Assembly (NCBI RefSeq): GCF_011045215.1
Contig: NZ_CP049201.1
Length of the DNA stretch: 64,000 nucleotides
Direction: 5' to 3' (one strand)
Origin: Escherichia coli
Lineage (GTDB): Bacteria; Pseudomonadota; Gammaproteobacteria; Enterobacterales; Enterobacteriaceae
The position numbers and the translations under genes were made by a program. The stretch's first letter is position 1; each line of letters begins with the position of its first letter. Shown here piece after piece: positions 878-62,800 of this stretch. Under the pieces are notes generated by a model that was not told the origin of the DNA, made no database searches, and saw only the letters and a program-made list of their open reading frames with translations.

Positions 878-4424
<3,547 letters not shown>

Positions 4425-4535
4425 ATAGCGCAATATCTCATCGTTGGTGCAAAAATGTAACGCACTGTGCACTGTCATAGTGCGTTTTCATTTTCAATCT
4501 TCTTAACTTCCTGCTCTCTTTCTCGTTTTTCATTT

Positions 4536-4551
4536 CTGGCACACCGCTTGC
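4536..4551 (+). promoter_or_regulatory. sigma54 (-24/-12) promoter of glnK-amtB
   Basis: TGGCAC-N5-TTGCA match (tggcacaccgcttgca) about 55-70 nt upstream of the glnK start; glnK is a known NtrC/sigma54 target. Confidence 0.65.
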
Positions 4552-4604
4552 AATACCTTCTTCGTGTAGCAGAACCATTACCGAATTCTGACCGGAGGGG
4601 ATCT

Positions 4605-4943
4605 ATGAAGCTGGTGACCGTGATAATCAAACCATTCAAGCTGGAAGACGTTCGTGAAGCGTTATCTTCCATTGGTATTCAGGGCCTGACCGTCACCGAA
4701 GTGAAAGGTTTCGGGCGTCAGAAAGGGCATGCCGAGCTGTACCGGGGGGCGGAATACAGCGTCAACTTCCTGCCAAAAGTAAAAATTGATGTGGCGATTG
4801 CTGATGACCAACTCGATGAAGTGATCGATATCGTCAGTAAGGCGGCTTACACCGGAAAAATTGGCGACGGCAAAATCTTCGTCGCTGAATTGCAACGCGT
4901 CATTCGTATTCGTACCGGCGAAGCCGACGAAGCGGCGCTGTAA
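4605..4943 (+). CDS. glnK: PII nitrogen regulatory protein GlnK
   Basis: 112-aa protein MKLVTVIIKPFKLEDVREAL... with T-loop RGAEY; immediately upstream of amtB. Confidence 0.95.
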   Translation: MKLVTVIIKPFKLEDVREALSSIGIQGLTVTEVKGFGRQKGHAELYRGAEYSVNFLPKVKIDVAIADDQLDEVIDIVSKAAYTGKIGDGKIFVAELQRVIRIRTGEADEAAL

Positions 4944-4972
4944 TCTCTGGCACACAGCAACAGGAACGAAAA

Positions 4973-6259
4973 ATGAAGATAGCGACGATAAAAACTGGGC
5001 TTGCTTCACTGGCGATGCTGCCGGGACTGGTAATTGCTGCACCTGCGGTGGCCGATAAAGCCGACAATGCGTTTATGATGATTTGTACTGCACTGGTGCT
5101 GTTTATGACTATTCCGGGGATTGCCCTGTTTTACGGTGGGTTGATTCGCGGCAAAAACGTGCTGTCGATGCTGACGCAGGTGACGGTGACGTTTGCACTG
5201 GTCTGTATTCTCTGGGTGGTTTACGGTTACTCGCTGGCGTTTGGTGAGGGCAACAACTTCTTCGGCAACATTAACTGGCTGATGCTGAAAAACATCGAAC
5301 TGACGGCGGTGATGGGCAGCATTTATCAGTATATCCACGTGGCGTTTCAGGGATCGTTTGCCTGCATTACCGTCGGCTTGATAGTTGGGGCGCTGGCGGA
5401 ACGAATCCGCTTCTCAGCTGTGTTGATTTTCGTGGTGGTATGGCTGACGCTCTCTTACATTCCGATTGCGCATATGGTGTGGGGCGGTGGTTTGCTGGCT
5501 TCTCACGGTGCGCTGGATTTCGCGGGTGGCACCGTGGTGCACATTAACGCCGCAATCGCCGGTCTGGTGGGCGCGTATCTGATAGGAAAACGCGTGGGCT
5601 TCGGTAAAGAGGCGTTTAAACCGCACAACCTGCCGATGGTCTTCACCGGGACTGCCATTCTCTATATCGGTTGGTTTGGCTTTAACGCCGGGTCAGCGGG
5701 CACGGCGAATGAAATCGCGGCACTGGCATTTGTGAATACTGTGGTCGCAACGGCGGCGGCAATTCTTGGCTGGATCTTCGGTGAATGGGCGCTGCGTGGT
5801 AAGCCTTCACTGCTGGGGGCGTGTTCTGGCGCGATTGCCGGTCTGGTCGGCGTGACGCCAGCCTGTGGCTACATTGGTGTTGGCGGCGCGTTGATTATCG
5901 GCGTGGTAGCTGGTCTGGCGGGCTTGTGGGGCGTTACCATGCTCAAACGCTTGCTGCGGGTGGATGATCCCTGCGATGTCTTCGGTGTGCACGGCGTTTG
6001 TGGCATTGTCGGCTGTATCATGACCGGGATTTTTGCCGCCAGCTCGCTGGGCGGCGTGGGCTTCGCTGAAGGTGTGACGATGGGCCATCAGTTGCTGGTA
6101 CAGTTGGAAAGCATTGCCATTACGATCGTCTGGTCCGGTGTGGTGGCATTTATTGGCTACAAACTGGCGGATCTGACGGTTGGCCTGCGTGTGCCGGAAG
6201 AACAAGAGCGAGAAGGGCTGGACGTCAACAGTCACGGCGAGAATGCCTATAACGCGTAA
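4973..6259 (+). CDS. amtB: ammonium channel AmtB
   Basis: 428-aa polytopic membrane protein with signal peptide; conserved glnK-amtB operon arrangement. Confidence 0.95.
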   Translation: MKIATIKTGLASLAMLPGLVIAAPAVADKADNAFMMICTALVLFMTIPGIALFYGGLIRGKNVLSMLTQVTVTFALVCILWVVYGYSLAFGEGNNFFGNINWLMLKNIELTAVMGSIYQYIHVAFQGSFACITVGLIVGALAERIRFSAVLIFVVVWLTLSYIPIAHMVWGGGLLASHGALDFAGGTVVHINAAIAGLVGAYLIGKRVGFGKEAFKPHNLPMVFTGTAILYIGWFGFNAGSAGTANEIAALAFVNTVVATAAAILGWIFGEWALRGKPSLLGACSGAIAGLVGVTPACGYIGVGGALIIGVVAGLAGLWGVTMLKRLLRVDDPCDVFGVHGVCGIVGCIMTGIFAASSLGGVGFAEGVTMGHQLLVQLESIAITIVWSGVVAFIGYKLADLTVGLRVPEEQEREGLDVNSHGENAYNA

Positions 6260-6270
6260 CAAGCACTGCA

Positions 6271-6309
6271 AAAAACAGCCGGACGGTTTTCACCTCCGGC
6301 TATTTTTTT
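6271..6309. terminator. bidirectional rho-independent terminator between amtB and tesB
   Basis: GC hairpin gccggacggttttcacctccggc flanked by an A-run upstream and a T-run downstream. Confidence 0.7.
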
Positions 6310-7168
6310 AATTGTGATTCCGCATCACCCCTTCCTGAACGGTCGAGGCAACCAGTACGCCGTCCTGGGTATAAAACTCACCGCGCACAAAGCCACGTGC
6401 GCTGGACGCCGAGGTGCTCTCCACGCTATACAGCAGCCATTCATTCAAATTAAACGGGCGATGGAACCACATGGAATGGTCAATGGTGGCAATCTGAATC
6501 CCCGGCTCGAGAAAACCGATGCCGTGCGGCTGTAGAGCTACCGGCAGGAAGTTAAGATCAGAAGCGTAACCGAGCAGATACTGATGAACGCGCAGGTCAT
6601 CCGGCACGCTACCATTTGCGCGGATCCACACCTGACGATGTGGTTCTGCGGCGTGACCTTTCAGTGGGTTATGAAACTCCACTGGACGGACTTCCAGCGG
6701 ACGATCGCAGATGAATTTATCTTTAAGCACTGGCGGCAGCAGGTGCGCCAGCGATTGGGCGATTTGCGTTTCCGAAGGCAGGCCATCAGGCGCTGGCGCG
6801 GACGGCATTGTTTTTTGATGTTCGAAACCCGCTTCTGGTGCCTGGAAAGAGGCCGTCATATAAAAAATCGGTTTGCCGTTTTGAATAGCAGCAACCCGGC
6901 GGGCGCTGAAGCTGTTACCGTCACGCAGCGTTTCGACATCATAAATAATCGGCTTCTTACTATCGCCAGGGCGAAGAAAGTAGCTGTGAAACGAATGTAC
7001 CAGCCGCTCTTCAGGGACGGTCTCTTTTGCAGCATACAAGGCCTGACCCACGACCTGGCCGCCAAATACCTGGCGTAAACCTAAATCTTCACTCTGGCCG
7101 CGAAAGAGTCCTTCCTCAATTTTTTCCAGATTTAACAATGTCAGTAAATTTTTTAGCGCCTGACTCAT
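6308..7168 (-). CDS. tesB: acyl-CoA thioesterase II
   Basis: Track ORF 6308-7186; protein recognisable from [30 protein letters not shown]..., so start placed at the internal Met at 7168. Confidence 0.9.
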
Positions 7169-47870: not shown

Positions 47871-50800
47871 ATGAGCCTGATTATTGATGTTATTTCGCGT
47901 AAAACATCCGTCAAACAAACGCTGATTAATCCTGGCGACGTCACGGTTGTTATTTATGAGCCTTCCGTGGTGCAGGTTCATGCTCAGGCCTCTGCCGTTG
48001 CGCGTTACGTCCGTGAAGGAAATGACCTGCTGATCTATTTGCAGGACGGCACGGTGATCCGCTGCAACGGTTATTTCCTGCAAGCGGCGAATACAGCTGA
48101 ACAATCGGAACTGGTGTTTGCCGATGGTCAACAGCTAACCCATGTCACCTTCGCCGATACTGCTGCGGGTGGATTAGCCCCCGTAGAACTGACTGCCCAG
48201 ACCACTGCGATTGAAAGCATTGCGCCATTTCTTGATACCGTTGCTCAGACCAGCGCCTTCCCGTGGGGTTGGCTGGCGGGGGCGGCGGTAGGTGGCGGTG
48301 CGCTTGGTGCACTGCTGGCAAGCGGTGGCGATGGCGACTCGAAAACAGAAGTGATTAATAACCCTACGCCACCTGCTGAGCCTGGCAACGCCACACCATC
48401 ATTTTTAGTTACCGATAATCAGGGCGATCAGCGCGGCATTCTCGCCACCAATGACATCACCGATGACACCACGCCAACCTTTAGCGGCAGCGGGCAGGCG
48501 GGGGCGACTATTCAGATTAAAGACAGTAACGGCAATACTATTGCCAGTACTCAGGTAGACAACAACGGTCACTGGAGTGTCTCGTTACCCACGCAAAGTG
48601 CAGGTGAACATACCTGGTCAGTGGTGCAAATTGTCGGCAGTACCATCACTGACGCCGGTTCGATAACGTTAACCATCGACAATAGTCAGGCCAGCGTGCA
48701 GGTTGCCACCACCGCAGGCGATAACATTATTAACGCCAGCGAACAGGCCGCCGGGTTTACGCTTTCTGGCACCAGTAGCCATCTGGCACAGGGAACAGAA
48801 CTCACCGTCACACTTAACGGCAAAACCTACACCACCAGCGTAGGCGCTAACGGTGCCTGGAGCGTGCAGGTGCCGACCGCCGATGCACAGGCGTTAGGCG
48901 AAGGGAATCAGGCGGTACTGGTCAGTGGGAAAGACACCACAGGCAATACGGTCACCGGCGCGCAGCTGCTAACGGTCGATACCCAACCGCCAACGCTTGC
49001 CATCAACACCATCGCTCAGGACAACATCATCAGTGCTGCGGAACATAACGTCGCGCTGGTACTGAGCGGCACGTCGAATGCAGAAGCGGGGCAAACCGTA
49101 ACACTGACCGTCAACGGGAAAAGCCATACAGCAACCGTCGGTAGCGACGGAACCTGGCAAGTGACGCTGCCTGCCACGGAAGTCCAGGCACTGGCGGAGG
49201 GTAATTACGCTGTCAATGCCAGTGTCAGCGATCGGGCAGGGAACACCACCAGCCACAGCGCGAATCTCACGGTAGACACCTCAGCACCCGTGGTCAGTGT
49301 TAATACCGTGGCGGGCGACGATATTCTTAATAATGCCGAGCAGGCCGTCGCGCAGATCATCTCCGGACAAGTTAGCGGTGCTTCTCCTGGCGATACGGTA
49401 ACGGTGAAATTGGGCACTCATGTCCTGACGGGCATCGTGCTGGCAGATGGCAGCTGGAATGTGGCGTTGGACCCGGCGGTAACCCGCACGCTGGATCGCG
49501 GAGCCAATACGATTTTCGTCACCGTGACAGATGCTGCAGGAAATACTGGCGCGGCGTCTCGAGCAATCACGCTGGTCGGTGTTTCTCCGTTGATCACCAT
49601 TAACACCGTCTCCGGCGATGACATTATCAGTGGCGCAGAAAAAGGTGCGCCACTGACCCTTACCGGTAGCACTCAACAGGCTGAGACAGGACAAACCGTC
49701 ACAGTAACCCTGGCTGGACAGAGTTTTACCACTACCGTGCAGGCCGATGGCTCCTGGAGTCTGACGGTACCTGCCGCCGCGATGGGAAATCTGCCTGACG
49801 GCGCGGTGGCGATTACCGCTTCTGTGACGGATCTCAGCGGCAATACCGGCAACACCTCCCGCACCATTACCGTCGACAGCCAGGCCCCGGCCTTAAGCAT
49901 TGATCCACTGACCGCTGATAACATCATTAACGCCGCCGAAAGCGGGCAGGATCTGCCCATCACCGGCACCACCGACGCTCAGCCGGGGCAGACGGTGACC
50001 GTTACGTTAAATGGGCAGACGTATCAGGGCGTCGTGCAGCCAGACGGCACCTGGAGCGTGACTGTGCCCGCCGCCAACGTGGGCGCACTGGCTGACGGCA
50101 ACGCTACGGTCACCGCCAACGTGAACGATGTCGCCGGTAATCCGAGCAGCGTCTCACGCGTGGCGCTGGTCGATGCCACGCCGCCGGTGGTGACCATTAA
50201 TCCGGTGGCGACCGATAACGTCATTAACACGCCGGAACATACCCAGGCGCAAATCATCAGCGGTACGGTTACTGGCGCTCAGGCGGGCGATATCGTCACC
50301 GTGACGCTGAATAATGTGAATTACACCACGGTGGTGGATGGTTCCGGCAACTGGAGCCTGGGCGTTCCGGCCTCGGTGGTCAGTGGGCTGGCGGACGGCA
50401 GTTATCCTGTCAGCGTCTCGGTAACCGACAAAGCCGGAAACACGGGCAGCCAGTCACTGACTGTCACGGTCAATACCGCAGCGCCCCTTATCGGCATTAA
50501 CAGCATTGCGGGCGATGATGTGATTAATGCCAGCGAAAAAGGGGCCGATCTCCAGATTACCGGCACCAGCGATCAGCCAGTGGGTACCGCCATCACCGTG
50601 ACGCTCAACGGGCAAAACTATGCGGCGACGACCGATGCCTCCGGCAACTGGAGCGTCAACGTTCCGGCATCGGCGGTAACCGCACTGGGCCAGGCCAACT
50701 ACACGGTAACGGCGGCGGTAACCAGCGATATCGGCAACAGCACCACCGCCAGCCATAATGTGCTGGTCGACAGCGCGCTGCCCGGCGTGACCATTAACCC

Positions 50801-53800
50801 GGTGGCAACCGATGATATTATTAACGCCGCCGAAGCGGGCGTGGCGCAAACCATCAGCGGGCAGGTGACTGGAACCGCCGTTGGCGACGCGGTAACCGTG
50901 ACGCTGGGCGGTAATACCTACACCACCACCGTGCAGGCCGGCTTAAGCTGGAGCGTGGACGTTCCGGCGGACGCTATTCAGGCGCTGGGTAATGGCGATT
51001 TAACGGTTAATGCCTCGGTCACCAATCAAAACGGCAACACCGGCAGCGGCACGCGGGATATCACCATCGACGCCAATCTGCCCGGCCTGCGGGTCGATAC
51101 GGTGGCGGGCGATGATGTGGTCAATATCATCGAGCACGGGCAGGCGCTGGTGATTACCGGCAGCAGTTCGGGGCTGGCAGAAGGCACGCCGCTTACCGTT
51201 ACGATTAATAATGTGGAATACACCACTGCGGTGCAGGCCGATGGTAGCTGGAGCGTGGGCGTCACGGCGGCGCAGGTTAGCGCCTGGCCTGCGGGGACGG
51301 TTAATATTGCCGTGTCCGGGGAAAGTAGCGCCGGAAATCCGATAAGCATTACGCATCCGGTAACGGTGGATCTCACTCCGGCGGCTATCACCATCAACAC
51401 TATCGCCACGGACGATGTGATTAACGCTGCAGAAAAAGGGGCTAATTTAACTCTTTCCGGCACCACCACTAACGTAGAAGCAGGGCAAACCGTCACTGTC
51501 ACCTTTGGCGGTAAAAATTACACCGCCAGCGTGGCGGGCGATGGTAGCTGGACTGCCACCGTTCCCGCCGCCGATCTGGCGGCATTACCGGAAGGCAGCG
51601 CCTCCGCTCAGGCCAGCGTCAGCAATATCAACGGCAATAGCGCCTCGGCGGTGCATAACTACAGCGTCGACAGCAGCGCGCCAACCATCATTATCAATAC
51701 CGTCGCCAGCGACAATATCGTCAACGCCAGCGAAGCCGATGCGGGTGTGACGGTGAGCGGCAGCACCACCGCTGAAGCGGGGCAGATTGTTACGGTAACG
51801 CTCAATAGCCCGACCGTGCAGACGTATCAGGCAACGGTACAGGCGGACGGCAGCTGGAGCATCAATATTCCGGCGGCAGATCTTGAGGCATTGACCGATG
51901 GCAGCCACACCCTGACCGCGACGGTCAATGACAAAGCGGGCAACCCGGCGAGCACCACGCATAATCTGGCGGTGGATCTCACCGTCCCGGTACTCACCAT
52001 CAATACCATTGCGGGCGATGACATTATTAACGCCGCCGAGCACGGACAGGCGCTGGTGATTTCTGGTTCCAGCACAGGCGGAGAGGCGGGAGATGTCGTC
52101 ACCGTCACGCTAAACAGTAAAACCTACACCACGACGCTGGATGCCTCCGGCAACTGGAGCGTCGGTGTTCCGGCGGCGGATGTCACCGCGCTGGGTAGCG
52201 GCCCGCAAACCATCACTGCCAGCATTACCGATGCGGCAGGTAATAGCGACAGCGAAACGCACACGGTCACCGTTAACCTTACCGCGCCGACCATTGGCAT
52301 TAACACCATCGCCACCGATGACGTGATTAATGCCACCGAAAAAGGCGCAGATCTGCAAATCTCCGGCACCAGTAATCAGCCAGCGGGCACCACGATTACG
52401 CTGACGTTTAACGGGCAAAATTACACCGCCACGACGGACGCCGCAGGTAACTGGAGCACCACGGTGCCAGCCTCTGCCGTCGGTGCGCTGGGCGAAGCCA
52501 GCTACACGGTGACGGCGAACGTCACCGACAGCGCAGGCAACAGCAATTCCGCCAGCCATAACGTGCAGGTCAATACCGCGCAGCCTGGCGTCACCATTAA
52601 TCCGGTTGCGACTGACGATATTATTAACGCCGCCGAATCGGGCAATGCGCAAACCATCAGCGGTCAGGTAACGGGCGCGGCGGCGGGCGATACCGTCACC
52701 GTGACGCTTGGCGGGAAAACCTACACGGCTACCGTGCAGGGGAATCTAAGCTGGAGCGTGGATGTTCCGGCTGCGGATATTCAGGCCATCGGTAATGGCG
52801 ACCTGACTGTTAACGCCTCAGTGACCAACGGCGTTGGCAATACCGGCAGCGGTTCGCGAGATATTACTATCGACGCCAACCTGCCTGGCCTGCGCGTCGA
52901 TACCGTGGCGGGCGATGATGTGGTTAACAGCATCGAACACGGTCAGGCACTGGTGATAACTGGTAGCAGCAGCGGGCTGGCGGTGGGCGCGGCGCTGACG
53001 GTGGTGATCAATAACGTCACCTATGGCGCGACAGTATTAGCCGATGGCACATGGAGCGTTGGTGTTCCGGCGGTAGACGTGAGTAACTGGCCTGCGGGTA
53101 CGGTGAATATCACGGTAAGTGGCACTAACACAGCCGGAACAACATCCACCATTACCCATCCGGTCACCGTCGATCTGGCGGCGGTGGTGATTTCCATTAA
53201 CACCATCTCCGGCGATGATGTGATTAACGCCGCCGAAAAAGGGGCAGATTTAACCCTTTCCGGCAGCACCTCCGGCGTAGAGCCAGGGCAAACGGTCACC
53301 GTCACCTTTGGCGGCAAAACCTACACCGCCACCGTAGCAGGCGATGGTAGCTGGACAACCACCGTACCTGCCGCCGATCTCAGCGTGTTACGCGACGGCG
53401 ACGCCACGGTACAGGCCAGCGTCAGCACTATTAACGGCAACACGGCTTCGGCAACCCACGCTTACAGCGTTGATGCCACTGCCCCGACGCTTGCCATTAA
53501 TACCATCGCCACCGACGATATTCTGAACGCCGCCGAGGCGGGCAATCCGCTAACCATCAGCGGCAGTAGCACCGCTGAAGCGGGGCAGACGGTAACTGTC
53601 ACGCTTAATGGCGTGACTTACACCGGCACCGTCCTGGCGGACGGGAGCTGGAGCGTCAGCGTGCCGACGGCGGATCTCAGCAATCTGACCGCCAGCCAGT
53701 ACACCGTCAGCGCCTCGGTAAACGATAAAGCGGGTAACCCGGCATCCACCACTCACGGGCTGGCGGTGGATCTCACCGTGCCGGTGCTGACCATCAACAC

Positions 53801-56800
53801 CGTCTCCGGCGATGACATTATTAACGCCGCCGAACACGGACAGGCGCTGGTGATCTCCGGCTCCAGTACTGGCGGCGAAGCGGGCGATGTCATCACCGTC
53901 ACGTTAAACAGTAAAACCTACACCACCACGCTGGATGCCTCCGGTAACTGGAGCGTCGGCGTTCCGGCGGCAGATGTCACCGCACTTGGCAGCGGCCCGC
54001 AAACCATCACGGCCACGATTACGGATATCGCGGGTAATAGCGATGATGCTAGCCGCACGGTCACCGTAAATCTCACCGCGCCAACCATTGGCATCAACAC
54101 CATCGCCACCGATGACGTGATTAACGCCACGGAAAAAGGCGCGGATCTGCAAATTACCGGCACCAGTAATCAGCCCGCGGGCACCACCATTACGGTGACG
54201 TTGAACGGGCAAAATTACACCGCTACTACCGATAGCAACGGCAACTGGAGCGCCACGGTGCCAGCGTCAGCGGTTAGCACGCTGGGTGAAGCTAACTACA
54301 CGGTAACCGCGAACGTCACCGACAGCGCAGGTAACAGCAATTCCGCCAGTCATAACGTGCTGGTCAACAGCGCCTTGCCTGCCGTCACCATTAACGCGGT
54401 GGCGACCGACGATATTATTAACGCTGCCGAAGCGGGCAATGCGCAAACCATCAGCGGGCAGGTGACGGGTGCCGCGGCGGGCGACACGGTTACCGTTACG
54501 CTGGGCGGCAACACCTACACCGCTACCGTACAGGCTAATTTAAGCTGGAGCGTTAGCGTGCCAGCGGCGGATATTCAGGCGCTGGGCAACGGCGACCTGA
54601 CAATTAATGCCTCGGTCACTAACGTCGTCGGCAACACCGGCAGCGGCTCGCGCGATATCACGATCGACGCCAATCTGCCTGGCTTACGGGTCGATACCGT
54701 GGCGGGCGATGATGTGATTAACAGCATTGAGCACAATCAGGCGCTGGTGATCACCGGTAGCAGCACCGGGCTGACGGCGGGAACGGCGTTAACGGTCGAG
54801 ATTAACAACGTTACTTATGGCGCGACGGTGTTAGCCGACGGCACATGGAACCTCGGTGTTCCGGCGGCAGACGTCAGCAACTGGCCTGCGGGTACGGTGG
54901 ATATCACGGTAAGCGGCACCAACAGCGCCGGAACAACCTCCACCATTACCCATCCGGTTACCGTCGATCTGTCGGCAGTCGCCATCACCATTAACACTCT
55001 CTCTGGTGATGATGTGATCAACGCCGTCGAAAAAGGCGAAACGCTGGTCGTAAGCGGCAGCACCAGCGGTGTCGAAGCCGGGCAAACGGTGACCGTCACC
55101 TTTGGCGGCAAAAATTACACCACCACTGTGGAAGCTAACGGTAGCTGGACGGTGAACGTACCGCCTGCCGATCTCGCTGCGCTACCGGACGGTGCGGGCA
55201 ACGTGCAGGCGAGTGTCAGCAACATCAACGGCAATAACGCCCAGGCGGATCGTACGTACAGCGTCGATGCCACCGCGCCACTTGTGACCATCAACACCAT
55301 CGCCAGCGACGATATCCTTAACGTGAGCGAAGCTGGCGCGGGGATCACCATCAGCGGCACTACCACGGCGCAGGCCGGGCAGACGCTGACCGTCACGCTC
55401 AATAATAACACGTACCAGACCACGGTTCAGGCGGATGGCACCTGGAGCGTGAATGTTCCGGCAGCGGATTTAAGCGGATTAACCGCCAGCAGTTACACCG
55501 TGACCGCCACGGTGAGCGACAAAGCGGGTAACCCGGCAAGCGCCGACCACGCGCTGGCGGTGGACGTTACCGCACCGGATCTCACCATTAATACCGTCGC
55601 GGGCGATGACATTATTAATGCCATCGAACACGGTCAGGCGCTGGTCGTCAGCGGAACCAGCACGGGCGCGGCGGCGGGTGATGTGGTCACGGTTAACCTG
55701 AACGGTAAAAACTACACCACCACGCTGGATGCCTCCGGTAACTGGAGCGTGGGCATTCCTGCGGTGGATGTGACGGCGCTGGCAACCGGCAACCAGACCA
55801 TTACCGCCAGCCTGAGCGATCGCGCGGGCAACAGCGACAGCACGACTCACAATGTGACCGTTGATCTCAGCGGCCCGACGCTGACCATCAACACCGTCTC
55901 CGGCGATGACATTATTAATAATGCGGAGAAAACCCAGGACTTGATCATCAGCGGCGGCTCCAGCGGTCTGGCGGCAGGCACTACGGTCACCGTGATGTTG
56001 AACGGCCTGGCGTACAGCGCTACTACCGACGGCTCCGGCAACTGGAGCGTTACCGTGCCTGCTTCTTCGGTTGGCGCGCTCGGCGAGGCGGTGTATCAGA
56101 TTAGCGCCAGCGCCACCGACAGCGCGGGCAACAGTGGCAGCACCACCCATACGGTGAATGTCGAATCGCTCCTGCCTGGGGTAATCATTAATACCGTGGC
56201 GGGCGATGACATTATCAACGCCGCTGAAATCGCTGTGGCGCAGACCATCAGCGGTCAGGTCACGGGGACGGCGGTTGCGGGTAATACGGTGATTGTCACC
56301 ATTGGCGGCAATCAATATAACGCCACCGTGCAGTCAGATTTAAGCTGGAGCGTCAGCGTACCTGCGAACGTTTTGCAGGCGCTGGGCAACGGTGAACTGA
56401 CCATCAGCGCCTCGGTGACTAATTCCGCAAATAATACCGGCACCACAACGCACGACATCGTGATAGATGCCAACCTGCCAGGTCTGCGCGTCGATACCGT
56501 GGCAGGCGATGATGTGATTAACAGCATCGAGCACACTCAGGCGTTGGTGATCACCGGTAGCAGTAGCGGACTGGCGGCGGGCGCGGCGTTGACGGTGGTT
56601 ATCAATAGCGTCACCTACGGCGCAACGGTTTTAGCGGATGGTAGCTGGAGCGTTGGTGTTCCGGCGGCAGATGTCACAAACTGGCCTGCGGGGACGGTCA
56701 ATATTGCCGTCTCTGGCACCAACACCGCCGGAACGACAACCAGTATTACCCATCCGGTGACCGTCGATCTCGCAGCCGTGGCGATCACCATCAACACCCT

Positions 56801-59800
56801 TTCCACTGACGATGTGATTAACGCCGCCGAAAAAGGCAGCGATTTGCAGCTCTCCGGCACCACCTCCGATGTGGAAGCGGGGCAAACCATCACCGTTATC
56901 TTCGGCGGCAAAAGCTACACCACCACGGTTGCCGCGGATAATACCTGGGGGCTGACGATCCCTGCCGCCGATGTTGCAACCTTGCCAGACGGCGCAGCAA
57001 ACGTCCAGGCCAGCGTCAGCAATGTCGCAGGGAACAGCGCCCAGGCAACGCATGCTTACAGCGTTGATGCCACTGCGCCCTCCGTTACCATCAACACCAT
57101 CGCCACGGACGATATTCTTAACGCCGCCGAAGCGGGATCGGCGCTGACCATCAGCGGCACCAGCACGGCGGAAGCCGGGCAGACGGTGACCGTAACGCTA
57201 AACGGCGTTAATTACAGCGGCAATGTGCAGGCAGACGGGAGCTGGAGCGTCAGCGTCCCGACCGGCGATTTAGCTAACCTCACTGCCAGCCCCTATACGG
57301 TGAGCGCAGCGGTCAGCGACAAAGCCGGAAATCTGGCTTCGGCGACGCATAACCTGACGGTGGACCTTGCCGCTCCGGTCGTCACCATTAACACGGTGGC
57401 GGGCGATGACATCATCAACGCCACGGAACACGGACAGGCGCAGATTATCAGCGGCTCGGCAACGGGCGCGACGACGGGTAACACGGTTTCCGTGACGATT
57501 GGCACGACCACCTACGCCACTGTGCTGGACGCCAACGGCAACTGGAGCATCGGCGTACCTGCCAGCGTGATTTCCGCACTGGCGCAGGGTGATGTAACCA
57601 TTACTGCCACGGTTACCGACTCCGCAGGCAACAGTGGCACGGCTTCGCACATTGTCAGCGTGGCGCTCGGCGCGCCGATACTCAGCATTAACACCATTGC
57701 CGTCGACGACATCCTCAACGCCACGGAGAAAGGTGCAGATCTGGCGATTACCGGCACCAGCAACCAGCCCGCGGGTACGCAGATTACCATTACGCTCAAC
57801 GGGCAAAATTACACCACCACTGCCGATGCATCCGGGAACTGGAGCGTAACCGTTCCGGCGTCACGGGTCAGCGCCCTCGGTGAAGCCACTTATACGGTGA
57901 CTGCCGCCGCCACTGACACCGATGGCAACAGCGGTTCCGCCAGCCATAATGTGCAGGTCAATACCGCGCTGCCGGGCGTCACCATTAACGTGGTGGCGAG
58001 CGACGATATTATTAACGCCGCCGAAGCGGGCGCGGGCCAGACCATCAGTGGGCAGGTGACGGGTGCTGCGGCAGGCGATACCGTTACCATAACGCTCGGC
58101 GGAGCGACTTACACCGCTACGGTGCAGGCGAATTTAAGCTGGAGCGTCGATGTTCCGGCCTCCGCGCTACAGGCGTTGGGCAACGGTGAGCTGACCATTT
58201 CGGCCTCGGTAACGAACAGCGTGGGCAATACAGGTAACGGCACGCGCGAAATCACCATCGACGCGAATCTCCCTGGTCTGCGGGTCGACACCGTGGCGGG
58301 CGATGACGTGGTCAACATTATCGAGCACAATCAGGCGCTGGTGATTACCGGCAGCAGCTCCGATCTGGCAGCGGGCAGCAACGTCACGCTGACCATAAAC
58401 GGGCAAACGTATGTTGCGGCGGTGCTGGCGGATGGCTCATGGAGCGTCGGCGTTCCGGCGGCAGATGTCAGCGCCTGGCCTGCGGGGAAGGTCACAATTA
58501 CGGCGAGCGGCAACACCACCGCCGGAAACCCGGTGAGCGTTACGCATCCGGTGACGGTCGATCTCACTGCGGTGGCGGTCAGCATCAACGCCATTACTGC
58601 CGATGACGTGATTAACGCTGCCGAAAAAGGCGCGGCGTTAACGCTCTCTGGCAGCACTACTGGTGTGGAGGCCGGACAAACGGTCACCGTCACCTTTGGC
58701 GGCAAAACTTACAGCGCCACGGTGGCTGCGAATGGTTCCTGGAGCACCTCGGTTCCGGCGGCAGATATGGCGGCCCTGCGTGATGGCGATGCCAGCGCAC
58801 AGGCCAGCGTCAGCAATGTTAACGGCAACAGCGCCACCACTACCCACGCATACAGCGTCGATGCCAGCGCGCCAACGGTGACCATTAACACCATTGCGGG
58901 CGACGACATTCTTAACGCCGCCGAAGCCGGAGCGGCGCTAACCATCACCGGCAGCAGCACGGCGGAAGTGGGGCAGACGGTGACCGTCACGCTCAATGGC
59001 GCAAACTATACCGGCACTGTACAGACGGACGGCAGCTGGAGCGTCAGTGTGCCGCCAGCCGACTTAAGCGCTCTGACCGCCAGCAACTACACCGTTAGCG
59101 CGGCGGTGAGCGACAAAGCCGGAAACCCGGCCTCGGTTAACCACAACCTGACGGTGGATACTTCCGTTCCGGTCGTCACCATCAACACGGTGGCAGGCGA
59201 TGATGTGATCAACGCGACGGAACACGCCCAGGCGCAGATCATCAGCGGCTCCGCCACGGGAGCGGTAACCGGTAGCACCGTGACGGTGACTATCGGCACA
59301 AATACCTTTACCACGGTGCTGGATGCCAGCGGCAACTGGAGCGTCGGCGTCCCGGCAAGCGTCGTCTCGGCACTGGCGAACGGCACGGTGACCATTAACG
59401 CCAGCGTCACTGATGCCGGAGGAAACAGCGGCAGCACCACCCATCAGGTGACGGTCAATACCGGGCTGCCGACCATTACCTTTAACGCTATCAGCGGCGA
59501 TAACGTCCTGAACGCCGATGAAAAAGGCCAGCCGTTGACCATCAGCGGTAGCAGTACGGGGCTGGCGACGGGCGCGCAGGTTACCGTCTCGCTCAACGGT
59601 CACAACTACAGTGCTACCACCGACGCAGCAGGCAACTGGACCTTAACCGTGCCGGTGAGCGATCTGGCGGCTCTAGGCCAGGCCAACTATACCGTCAGCG
59701 CCAGCGCCACCAGTGCGGCGGGCAACACCGCCAGCAGCCAGGCGAATTTACTGGTCGACAGCGGCCTGCCGGGCGTCACCATCAACACCGTAGCGGGCGA

Positions 59801-62800
59801 CGATATTATCAACGCCGCCGAAGCGGGGGCCGATCAAACCATCAGCGGGGTGGTGACTCGCGCCGCCGCAGGCGATACGGTCACCGTGACGCTGGGCGGC
59901 AACACTTACACAGCGCAGGTTCAGGCCGATTTAAGCTGGAGCGTCACCGTTCCGGCAGCCGATTTCCAGGCGCTGGGCAATGGTGATTTGACCATTACCG
60001 CCTCGGTCACCAACGCGAATGGCAACACTGGCAGCGGCACGCGGGATATCACCATTGACGCCAACCTGCCTGGGCTGCGGGTGGATACCGTGGCGGGCGA
60101 TGATATCGTCAACAGTATCGAGCACGGGCAGGCGCTGGTGATCACCGGCGGCAGTAGCGGCCTGAATGCAGGTGCTGTGCTGACGGTTACCATCAACAGT
60201 GTGGCGTATTCCGCCACGGTACAGGCGGACGGGAGCTGGAGCGTCGGCATTTCGGCGGCAAGCGTCAGCGCCTGGCCTGCGGGGCCGTTAACCGTTGATG
60301 TGGCAGGACAGAGCAGCGCCGGAAATCCGGTCAGCGTCAGCCATCCGTTCACCGTCGATTTAACTTCGGTGGCTATCAGCATCAACACCGTTGCCAGCGA
60401 CGACGTAATTAACGCCGCCGAGAAAGGCACCGACCTGACCCTTTCCGGCAGCACCAGCGGGATTGAAAGTGGGCAAACCGTTACCGTCACCTTTGGCGGT
60501 AAAACCTACACCGCAAGCGTCGCCGCCAATGGAAGCTGGAGCGTAACGGTTCCGGCGGCGGATCTGGCAGCTCTGCCAGACGGCGCGGCGAACGTGCAGG
60601 CCAGCGTCAGCAGCGCGAGCGGCAATAGCGCCTCAGCGACTCATGCGTACAGCGTTGACGCCAGCGCGCCGACGCTCACCATTAACACCATCGCCAGCGA
60701 TGACATCCTTAACGCGGCAGAGGCGGGAAATCCGCTGACCATCAGCGGCACCAGCACCGCCGAAACCGGGCAGACGGTGACCGTCACCCTTAACGGCGCA
60801 ACCTACAGCGGTAATGTGCAGGCAGATGGTAGCTGGAGCGTCAGCGTTCCCACTTCAGCCCTGGGCGCGCTCACCGCAAGCAATTATACCGTCAGCGCCA
60901 CCGTCAACGACAAAGCGGGTAACCCCGGCAGCGCCAGCCATAATCTGGTGGTAGACACCACCGCGCCGGTTCTTACCATAAATACCGTGGCGGGCGATGA
61001 CATCATCAACGATGCCGAACATGCGCAGGCGCTGGTGATCTCCGGCACCAGTAGCGGCGGGGAAGCGGGCGATGTGGTGAGCGTTGTGCTCAACGGCAAA
61101 ACCTACACCACCACCCTGGATGCCTCCGGCAACTGGAGCGTCGGCGTTCCGGCGGCGGATGTTACGGCACTCGGTAGCGGTGCGCAGACCATCACCGCCA
61201 GCGTCAGCGATCGGGCAGGCAACAGCGACGACGCCAGCCGCACCGTCACCGTTAGCCTCAGCGCGCCAGTGATTAGCATCAACACCATCGCGGGCGATGA
61301 TGTGATCAACGCGACGGAAAAAGGATCCGATCTGGCGCTTTCCGGCACCAGCGATCAGCCTGCGGGTACGGCGATCACCGTCACGCTGAACGGACAAAAC
61401 TACAGCGCCACTACCGACGCCTCCGGCAACTGGAGCGTTACTGTGCCCGCCTCGGCGGTCAGTGCGCTGGGCGAAGCGACCTACAGCGTCACGGCGAGCG
61501 TCACCAATGCCCAGGGCAACAGCAGCACCGCCAGCCATAACGTGCAGATCAATACCGCGCTGCCGGGCGTCACCCTTAATCCGGTGGCGACGGACGATAT
61601 TATCAATGCCGCCGAAGCGGGCAGCGCACAAACCATCAGCGGCCAGGTAACCGGGGCGGCGGCGGGCAGTACCGTCACCGTTGAACTGGGCGGTAAAACT
61701 TACACCGCCATCGTCCAGGCTGATTTAAGCTGGAACGTGAGCGTACCAGCCGCCGACTGGCAGGCGCTGGGTAACGGTGAGTTAACCGTTAACGCCTCGG
61801 TCACCAACGCCGTTGGCAACACCGGCAGCGGCACGCGCGATATCACCATCGATGCCAGTCTGCCTGGCCTGCGGGTGGATACCGTCGCGGGTGATGATGT
61901 GGTCAATATCATCGAACACAGTCAGGCGCAGGTGATCACCGGCAGCAGCTCTGGCTTTGCGGCGGGCACGGCGCTGACGGTGGTGGTAAATAACCAAACT
62001 TACGCCGCCACGGTGCTGGCGAACGGCAGCTGGAGCGTCGGCGTTCCGGCGGCGGATGTCAGCAACTGGCCTGTGGGAACGCTGAATATTAGCGTTAGCG
62101 GCGCAAACAGTGCCGGAACGCAAACCAGCATTACCCATCCGCTGACTGTTGATCTCACGACCGTCGCCGTCAGCATGAACAGCATCACCAGCGATGATGT
62201 GATTAACGCCGCCGAAAAAGGCGCGGCGCTAACGCTCTCCGGCAGCACGTCTGGCGTCGAAGCGGGGCAAACCGTCACCGTCACCTTTGGCGGCAAAACC
62301 TACACCTCCACGGTGGCGGCTAACGGTAGCTGGAGCACCACCGTTCCGGTTGCGGATATGGCGGCGCTGCGTGACGGCGATGCCAGCGCCCAGGTGCGGG
62401 TGACTAACGTCAACGGCAACAGCGCCACGGCAACGCACGAATACAGCGTCGATAGCGCCGCGCCAACGGTCACCATCAACACCATTGCCAGCGATAACAT
62501 CATCAACGCCAGCGAAGCGGCGGCGGGCGTAACGGTGTCCGGCACCAGCACGGCGGAAACCGGGCAGACGCTCACCGTCACGCTTAACGGCACTAACTAC
62601 CAGACCACGGTGCAGGCAGACGGCAGCTGGAGTTTAACGCTGCCCGCCAGCGACTTAACCGCACTGGCTAATAACGGCTACACCCTGACCGCCACGGTCA
62701 GCGATCTGGCGGGTAACCCTGGCAGCGCCAGCAAAGGCGTGACCGTCGATACCACTGCGCCGGTGATCAGTTTTAACACCGTGGCGGGCGATGATGTGAT

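What the first reader, a model, noticed from the sequence alone, without database searches (positions are those of the whole stretch)
4536..4551. glnK-amtB sigma54 promoter
TGGCAC-N5-TTGCA upstream of glnK, consistent with NtrC-dependent nitrogen-limitation control; NtrC enhancer sites would be expected in the preceding ~100 bp (4440-4530) but I could not assign them confidently by eye.
Basis: partly seen in the sequence, partly recalled or inferred. Interest (0 to 1): 0.2.

Follow-up and report, generated by a model that had tools for sequence, protein, structure and literature searches.

The report
Known glnK-amtB nitrogen-starvation promoter

Summary
The motif is real. TGGCACACCGCTTGCA lies at 4537-4552 on the + strand, one base right of the stated 4536-4551. 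It is the only exact match in the 64 kb window and sits 53 nt before the glnK ATG (4605).

The 4440-4640 stretch matches E. coli K-12 except for two spacer SNPs. Published K-12 data therefore transfer:
- A sigma54 ChIP-seq peak sits on exactly this 17-mer.
- A mapped start site falls at window G4564, 1 nt from the position the motif predicts.
- NtrC ChIP-seq and gSELEX peaks lie at the locus.
- glnK mRNA is lost in a glnG deletion strain.

Footprinting across 15 related species places the NtrC sites at 4468-4484 (centre -88, kept in all 15) and 4448-4464 (centre -108). The two centres are always 20 bp apart. Both sites match the consensus worse than the glnAp2 sites do, which fits the known late activation of glnK.

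Two small extras emerged. The enhancer overlaps a terminator-like hairpin plus T-run 35 nt after the mdlB stop. Enhancer-to-promoter distance varies between genera by roughly whole helical turns.

The parts
4537..4552 (+). sigma54 -24/-12 promoter element TGGCACACCGCTTGCA of glnKp. GG is at 4538-4539 (-26/-25) and GC at 4550-4551 (-14/-13) relative to the mapped start.
   Evidence: Identical to the K-12 sigma54 ChIP-seq motif. TGGCA-N6-TTGC is invariant in 16 aligned species while the spacer varies.
4564..4564 (+). Transcription start of glnK-amtB (G), giving a 41-nt 5' UTR.
   Evidence: K-12 start site 471781 with 1952 reads, transcription unit glnK;amtB (PMC3923258 Table S6), mapped through the identical sequence. 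The motif-based prediction is 4563.
4468..4484 (.). Proximal NtrC site B, TGCACTGTCATAGTGCG, centre 4476 = -88. It has 4 mismatches to TGCACCAnnnTGGTGCA.
   Evidence: Conserved as tGCACt...aTgGTGCG in 15 of 15 Enterobacterales sequences (14 fetched loci plus the window). No SNPs in divergent E. coli strains.
4448..4464 (.). Distal NtrC site A, TGCAAAAATGTAACGCA, centre 4456 = -108. It has 5 mismatches to the consensus but keeps 8 of the 9 positions of the GCAnnA/TnnTGC core.
   Evidence: Conserved in most Enterobacterales, always 20 bp from site B, and absent in Photorhabdus. The core definition comes from PMC8743547.
4459..4495 (+). Terminator-like hairpin AACGCACTGTG/CATAGTGCGTT (4459-4486) followed by TTCATTTTC, 35 nt after the mdlB stop. 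It overlaps the right half of site A and all of site B.
   Evidence: RNA fold of 4425-4500 gives -23 kcal/mol, z = -3.9. Hairpin and T-run are kept in 9 species, 92% of cells are paired, and one pair covaries, 4466:4479.
4485..4536 (.). T-rich spacer between enhancer and promoter. Its length varies between genera.
   Evidence: No IHF consensus with up to 1 mismatch. Most of the E. coli SNPs seen in the divergent strains fall here. Length differences keep helical phase.
4594..4600 (+). Shine-Dalgarno sequence GGAGGGG of glnK.
   Evidence: Read from the sequence. The GGAG core is conserved across the Escherichia-to-Klebsiella clade.
4605..4943 (+). glnK coding sequence (PII-2, 112 aa).
4973..6259 (+). 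amtB coding sequence (ammonium channel, 428 aa), co-transcribed with glnK.
   Evidence: The transcription unit glnK;amtB is listed in PMC3923258.
2643..4424 (+). mdlB (smdB), the upstream gene. Its stop codon is at 4422-4424.
   Evidence: The mdlB-to-glnK gene order is kept in 14 of 14 Enterobacterales loci.

Best explanation
Positions 4537-4552 are the -24/-12 recognition element of glnKp, the sigma54-dependent promoter of the glnK-amtB operon. RNA polymerase carrying sigma54 sits there as a closed complex that cannot open DNA on its own (established for this promoter class). Under nitrogen limitation NtrB phosphorylates NtrC. NtrC~P then oligomerises on two adjacent 17-bp dyad sites at 4448-4464 and 4468-4484, centred at -108 and -88. 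It contacts the polymerase by looping the T-rich, IHF-free spacer and uses ATP hydrolysis to open the promoter. Transcription starts at G4564. Both sites match the consensus poorly (5 and 4 mismatches, against 1 and 2 for glnAp2). This fits the known behaviour that glnK fires only after NtrC has been amplified from glnAp2. What is shown: the motif, sigma54 occupancy, the start site, NtrC dependence and conservation of the sites. What is inferred: the exact NtrC contacts at these two sites, and looping without IHF.
For: Motif and context. The region matches K-12 except for spacer SNPs and is 100% identical to O157:H7 genomes. The sigma54 ChIP-seq peak centre 471768 and motif centre 471761 equal window 4551 and 4544. 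The mapped start site 471781 equals window 4564. NtrC evidence: ChIP-seq peak and loss of glnK mRNA in a glnG deletion strain, gSELEX for RpoN and NtrC, and a report that glnKp depends exclusively on NtrC phosphorylation, with 400-fold higher specific activity on starvation (PMC3870243). The Salmonella orthologue shows sigma54 ChIP-chip binding and a 1.1 to 1778 Miller unit rise. Footprinting: the -24/-12 element is kept in 15 of 15 fetched loci, site B in all 15 Enterobacterales sequences compared, site A in most, with a fixed 20-bp spacing. Divergent E. coli strains carry no SNPs in any of these elements. Positive control: the same scoring recovers the documented glnAp2 sites at exactly -140 and -108 (positions from PMC1865078). 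No sigma70-like promoter is found in 4200-6500 and no IHF site in the spacer.
Against: The NtrC sites were assigned by consensus match and conservation, not by a footprint. The paper that footprinted glnKp (Atkinson et al. 2002, PMC135341) is not held, so I could not compare. Both sites are weak matches, and such matches are common by chance: 60 hits with 3 or fewer mismatches in the window against 42 expected. The published NtrC ChIP-seq interval 471741-471821 equals window 4524-4604. That covers the promoter and 5' UTR, not 4448-4484, so at 80-bp resolution it does not pinpoint the sites. Cho et al. label the start site 'DN', meaning sigma70 binding and a sigma70 motif were also called there. 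At the time of PMC4591121, EcoCyc listed this promoter only as 'predicted'.
Confidence: 0.95

Rival explanations
1. The inverted repeat at 4459-4486 is primarily the intrinsic terminator of the mdlAB operon. Its resemblance to NtrC sites would be incidental, and NtrC would bind elsewhere or act from solution.
For: A stable hairpin followed by a T-run lies 35 nt after the mdlB stop. Hairpin and T-run are kept in 9 species, with one covarying pair. The published NtrC ChIP interval does not cover it.
Against: The sequence TGCACt...aTgGTGCG is conserved base for base in Yersinia, Rahnella, Acerihabitans and Photorhabdus, where no T-run follows it. A terminator would need only the structure. The left half-site TGCAC lies in the loop yet is invariant. 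A second dyad sits exactly 20 bp upstream in most species. No better NtrC site exists within 300 bp.
Confidence: 0.04
2. Dual use: the same 4459-4495 segment acts in RNA as the mdlAB terminator and in DNA as the glnK enhancer. This adds to the main explanation and does not compete with it.
For. The T-run and hairpin are conserved across Escherichia, Citrobacter, Superficieibacter, Enterobacter and Klebsiella. Spacer base 4466, which NtrC does not constrain, covaries with site B position 12 (U-A in 4 species, C-G in 5, none unpaired).
Against: Two adjacent palindromic NtrC sites will form a hairpin in any case. The covariation may be a single evolutionary event, since all four U-A species are Escherichia and Citrobacter. 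Yersinia, Rahnella and Acerihabitans have no terminator-like site anywhere in the intergenic region, so a terminator may not be required. No 3'-end data could be found.
Confidence: 0.45
3. The motif is a chance match, or a transcriptionally silent sigma54 binding site of the kind common inside E. coli genes. glnK would then be expressed from a sigma70 promoter or by read-through from mdlAB.
For: 9% of shuffled windows contain an exact match. Cho et al. also assign sigma70 to the start site. Many sigma54 sites in E. coli are inactive (PMC4591121).
Against: The mapped start site is 1 nt from the sigma54-predicted start. glnK mRNA needs glnG. The Salmonella reporter gives only 1.1 Miller units without nitrogen limitation. 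No sigma70-like hexamers are found. The motif is conserved in 15 of 15 orthologous loci.
Confidence: 0.01

Closest known systems
E. coli K-12 glnKp (glnK-amtB promoter, b0450-b0451)
   Same: The -24/-12 element, both NtrC sites, the start-site region, the 5' UTR and the glnK start are identical. The gene order mdlB-glnK-amtB-tesB is also the same.
   Different: There are only two intergenic SNPs, 4437 C/T and 4498 T/A, both outside the functional elements. The window's intergenic region is 100% identical to O157:H7 strains.
E. coli glnAp2 (glnALG promoter), the paradigm NtrC/sigma54 promoter
   Same: It is a sigma54 -24/-12 promoter activated by NtrC~P from upstream 17-bp dyad sites, one of which is centred at -108 in both promoters.
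   Different: glnAp2 has strong sites (1 and 2 mismatches) spaced 32 bp apart at -140 and -108, plus extra weak sites nearer the promoter. glnKp has two weak sites (5 and 4 mismatches) spaced 20 bp apart at -108 and -88, and no further sites. The -12 element also differs: TTGCA in glnKp, TCGCT in glnAp2. glnKp is described as the 'simpler' promoter that needs higher NtrC activity.
Salmonella Typhimurium glnKamtB promoter (STM0462)
   Same: It is the orthologous position, with the motif TGGCACATCCTTTGCAAT, sigma54 ChIP-chip binding and NtrC- and nitrogen-dependent reporter activity.
   Different: The N5 spacer differs (ATCCT against ACCGC). I did not examine the Salmonella enhancer.
glnK promoters of other Enterobacterales (Enterobacter, Yersinia, Rahnella, Acerihabitans)
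   Same: They share the -24/-12 element and the same A/B site pair with 20-bp spacing.
   Different: Their enhancer is centred at about -141 and -161 instead of -88 and -108, which is about 54 bp or five helical turns further away. A third site-like hairpin lies 62 bp upstream of site B and is missing in Escherichia.

Membership tests
sigma54 (-24/-12) promoter | GG and GC doublets exactly 10 bp apart within TGGCAC-N5-TTGCW | tested here: met
   TGGCACACCGCTTGCA at 4537-4552, with no mismatch.
sigma54 (-24/-12) promoter | Transcription starts about 11-13 nt downstream of the GC doublet | tested here: met
   The K-12 start site 471781 equals window 4564, 13 nt after C4551. This was transferred through the identical sequence and not measured in this strain.
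sigma54 (-24/-12) promoter | Occupied by sigma54 holoenzyme in vivo or in vitro | tested here: met
   Literature look-up on identical sequence: ChIP-seq peak OS03 with a fold-above-threshold score of 18, and a gSELEX RpoN peak.
sigma54 (-24/-12) promoter | Activity strictly requires an enhancer-binding ATPase, with no activator-independent expression | tested here: met
   From the literature: glnK mRNA is not readily detected in a glnG deletion strain, and the Salmonella reporter gives 1.1 Miller units without nitrogen limitation. No sigma70-like promoter is found.
NtrC-dependent enhancer | At least two 17-bp dyad sites resembling TGCACCAnnnTGGTGCA about 80-150 bp upstream of the start | tested here: met
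   Sites at 4448-4464 and 4468-4484. They are weak matches (5 and 4 mismatches) but conserved across genera. The method recovers the glnAp2 sites at -140 and -108.
NtrC-dependent enhancer | NtrC physically bound at those sites | tested here: inconclusive
   NtrC ChIP-seq and gSELEX peaks lie at the locus. The ChIP interval maps to 4524-4604, not onto the sites. The footprinting paper is not held.
Intrinsic (Rho-independent) terminator of mdlAB | G+C-rich hairpin immediately followed by a U-tract, downstream of a stop codon | tested here: met
   An 11-bp stem at 4459-4486 followed by TTCATTTTC, 35 nt after the mdlB stop.
Intrinsic (Rho-independent) terminator of mdlAB | RNA 3' ends mapped at the U-tract | not testable with these tools
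   No 3'-end data were held for mdlB.

The most novel reading that the evidence does not exclude
The glnK enhancer and the mdlAB terminator may be one shared 28-bp element. The right half-sites of NtrC sites A and B would form the stem of an RNA hairpin with a U-tract that ends mdlAB transcripts. That would insulate the silent sigma54 promoter from read-through and constrain both functions at once. Separately, enhancer-to-promoter distance in Enterobacterales (-87, -97, -118, -131, -141) has changed only by roughly whole helical turns. This implies a face-of-the-helix requirement for NtrC at this IHF-less promoter.
Probability: 0.4. Interest if true: 0.25.

Novelty: already known. Interest (0 to 1): 0.1.

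Why it matters
It matters little for discovery. glnKp is a textbook NtrC/sigma54 promoter, and the window carries it essentially unchanged. The value here is in annotation. The -24/-12 element, the start site, both NtrC sites, the Shine-Dalgarno sequence and the operon can now be placed to the base in this window. The possible enhancer/terminator overlap and the helical-phase-preserving indels are minor points about how compact intergenic regions pack signals. They would interest only specialists in sigma54 promoter architecture.

Tried and rejected
- **Papers not held.** The primary papers that describe glnKp biochemically could not be read: Atkinson et al. 2002 (PMC135341), van Heeswijk et al. 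2013 (PMC3973380) and Zimmer et al. 2000 (PMC18977). The NtrC site assignment therefore could not be checked against a published footprint.
- **No 3'-end data for mdlB.** The Adams 2021 supplements hold no entry for mdlB or glnK. The Dar and Sorek 2018 supplements are not held. A full-text search for mdlB + glnK + terminator found nothing relevant.
- **No IHF site.** A scan for WATCAANNNNTTR between enhancer and promoter found nothing with up to 1 mismatch.
- **No RNA family.** An Rfam scan of 4000-6600 gave only two sub-threshold hits near the amtB/tesB junction, unrelated to the finding.
- **Second TGGCAC rejected.** The TGGCAC at 4948-4953, between glnK and amtB, lacks a GC doublet at the right spacing and did not pass the 1-mismatch scan.
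- **Consensus scan alone is uninformative.** Conservation was needed to place the sites.
- **Third site left open.** A third NtrC-like element 62 bp upstream of site B in Enterobacter, Yersinia and Rahnella is absent in Escherichia. It is itself a hairpin, so its nature is unresolved.
- **Failed call.** A first attempt to scan genomes failed because I had the glnK frame one base off. The ATG is at 4605.

Full report
**Observation.** The stretch 4530-4560 reads tcatttcTGGCACACCGCTTGCAatacc. It is the only match in the 64 kb window, even when one mismatch is allowed. By chance 0.11 exact matches are expected, and 9 of 100 shuffles had one or more. The motif alone is therefore only mildly improbable. 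Its position and conservation carry the weight.

**Context.** ORFs and family models identify mdlB/smdB at 2643-4424, glnK at 4605-4943 and amtB at 4973-6259, with tesB convergent downstream. The 180-bp mdlB-glnK intergenic region is present in 5423 of 5426 complete E. coli genomes and is 100% identical to O157:H7 strains. Against K-12 MG1655 the region 4400-4640 differs at three positions only: 4406 inside mdlB, and 4437 and 4498 in the intergenic region. Window position equals the U00096.2 coordinate minus 467217.

**Published evidence on the identical K-12 sequence.**
- Bonocora et al. report a sigma54 ChIP-seq peak (OS03, fold-above-threshold score 18) centred at 471768. Its motif CTGGCACACCGCTTGCA is centred at 471761, which is window 4544. 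The predicted start is 42 nt before glnK, which is window 4563. EcoCyc then listed the promoter as 'predicted' (PMC4591121).
- Cho et al. list an experimental start site at 471781 (+), with 1952 reads, for the transcription unit glnK;amtB, with sigma binding 'DN' (PMC3923258 Table S6). This is window G4564, 1 nt from the prediction. It places GG at -26/-25 and GC at -14/-13.
- Brown et al. find a 39.7-fold NtrC ChIP-seq peak at glnK-amtB. They also show that glnK mRNA is not readily detected in a glnG deletion strain and is restored by complementation (PMC4066584).
- Shimada et al. find gSELEX peaks for RpoN holoenzyme and for NtrC at the mdlB/glnK spacer (PMC8743547).
- Schumacher et al. describe glnKp as the simpler promoter that depends exclusively on NtrC phosphorylation, with 400-fold higher specific activity on ammonium starvation (PMC3870243).
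- In Salmonella, the orthologous TGGCACATCCTTTGCAAT binds sigma54, and a lacZ fusion rises from 1.1 to 1778 Miller units under nitrogen limitation (PMC3844500).

**Where the NtrC sites are.** The consensus is TGCACCAnnnTGGTGCA, with GCAnnA/TnnTGC most conserved (PMC8743547). A plain consensus scan is not informative: it gives 60 hits with 3 or fewer mismatches in the window. I therefore fetched glnK loci from other genomes and compared the upstream regions of 15 Enterobacterales/Orbales loci.

All 15 carry TGGCA[CT]-N5-[CT]TTGC[AT] 59-104 nt before the ATG, with a free N5 spacer. When the 15 Enterobacterales sequences (14 fetched loci plus the window) are anchored on the best dyad, two footprints emerge:
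- **Site B**, 4468-4484, TGCACTGTCATAGTGCG. It is conserved as tGCACt...aTgGTGCG in all 15.
- **Site A**, 4448-4464, TGCAAAAATGTAACGCA. It is conserved in most species, shifted by 1 nt in one, and absent in Photorhabdus.

The centres of A and B are always 20 bp apart. Relative to the mapped start they lie at -108 and -88.

As a positive control I applied the same scoring and start-prediction rule to K-12 glnA. It returned sites at exactly -140 (1 mismatch) and -108 (2 mismatches), the positions given in the literature (PMC1865078). The glnK sites have 5 and 4 mismatches, so they are much weaker. This fits the reported need for higher NtrC activity at glnK than at glnAp2.

In the most divergent E. 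coli strains sampled, all SNPs fall in spacers: 4437, 4489-4490, 4498, 4519, 4525, 4556 and 4582. None falls in site A, site B or the -24/-12 element. There is no sigma70-like promoter in 4200-6500. There is no IHF consensus in the spacer 4485-4536.

One caveat applies. The published NtrC ChIP interval, 471741-471821, maps to window 4524-4604. That is the promoter and 5' UTR, not the sites themselves. At that resolution it supports the locus but not the exact sites. The footprinting paper was not available.

**Mechanism.**
- Shown: sigma54 holoenzyme binds 4537-4552, and transcription starts at 4564. Expression needs NtrC and nitrogen limitation.
- Inferred from the family: NtrC~P oligomerises on sites A and B, loops the roughly 50-bp T-rich spacer and opens the closed complex by ATP hydrolysis.
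- The products are GlnK, which regulates AmtB and NtrB, and the ammonium channel AmtB.

**Extras.**
1. *Terminator-like hairpin.* The terminator scan flags 4459-4486 (AACGCACTGTG / CATAGTGCGTT) followed by TTCATTTTC, 35 nt after the mdlB stop.
   - *Support.* The RNA fold of 4425-4500 gives -23 kcal/mol, z = -3.9. The stem is built from the right half-sites of A and B. Hairpin and T-run are retained in nine species from Escherichia to Klebsiella. In these, 92% of cells are paired, and one pair covaries perfectly: 4466:4479 is U-A in 4 species and C-G in 5. Base 4466 lies in the spacer between the sites, where NtrC imposes no known constraint.
   - *Doubts.* The covariation may be a single event. 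Yersinia, Rahnella and Acerihabitans have no terminator-like site in the spacer. Photorhabdus has a separate one just after site B. No 3'-end data were found.
   - *Assessment.* I rate dual use as plausible, at about 0.45.
2. *Helical phase.* The distance from site B to the predicted start is 87 in Escherichia, 97 in Citrobacter and 118 in Superficieibacter. It is 130-131 in Klebsiella sp. and Photorhabdus, and 140-142 in Enterobacter, Acerihabitans, Rahnella and Yersinia. These differ by about 1, 3, 4 and 5 helical turns. A Rayleigh test on five distance classes at 10.5 bp per turn gives R = 0.85, p of about 0.02. This is suggestive of a face-of-helix constraint, but the sample is small.
3. 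*Wider distribution.* A sigma54-like motif precedes glnK homologues in 45 of 80 proteobacterial loci, against 1 of 80 and 4 of 80 in controls. The arrangement is widespread, as already known.

**Verdict.** The element is the already-described glnKp. Novelty is nil for the promoter and marginal for the enhancer/terminator overlap and phase conservation.

Noticed in passing
window 4459-4495: The NtrC enhancer overlaps a terminator-like hairpin and T-run just after mdlB. Spacer base 4466 covaries with base 4479 across nine species.
   Followed up: yes
window 4948-4963: A second TGGCAC (TGGCACACAGCAACAG) lies in the glnK-amtB spacer. It has no GC doublet at the -12 spacing, so it is not a sigma54 promoter by sequence.
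   Followed up: partly
window about 4856, 4889 and 4895 (K-12 472073, 472106, 472112): Cho et al. 2014 Table S6 lists three minor start sites inside glnK, assigned to amtB, with 37-87 reads against 1952 for glnKp. These may be weak internal promoters or processing products.
   Followed up: no
L088 2667-3456 (E. coli isolate 30859_5#287, NZ_OZ040756.1); equivalent to window about 4590: One of 5423 E. coli genomes has an IS1 element inserted between glnKp and the glnK start codon. This would uncouple glnK-amtB from its sigma54 promoter.
   Followed up: partly
L006, L007, L011-L014, about 62 bp upstream of site B: Enterobacter, Yersinia, Rahnella and Acerihabitans carry a third conserved element, GCACCnnnATCAGGCA, which is also a hairpin (CGCCTGAT...ATCAGGCG). 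It is absent from Escherichia and Citrobacter. It could be a third NtrC site or the mdlB terminator of those species.
   Followed up: partly
window about 50300-64000 (+): A very long open reading frame runs off the window end. It encodes repeated Ig-like adhesin-type domains (for example TVTLNGQNYAATTDASGNWSVNVPA). Its periodic TACACC...GGTGCA codon pattern produces many of the NtrC-consensus hits. Tandem Repeats Finder reported nothing at score 200 or above.
   Followed up: partly
window 6269-6402: The amtB/tesB convergent junction holds a terminator-like hairpin on the - strand (6402-6383) and two sub-threshold Rfam hits (Thr_leader at 26.8 bits against a cut-off of 55). This is probably just a terminator structure.
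   Followed up: no
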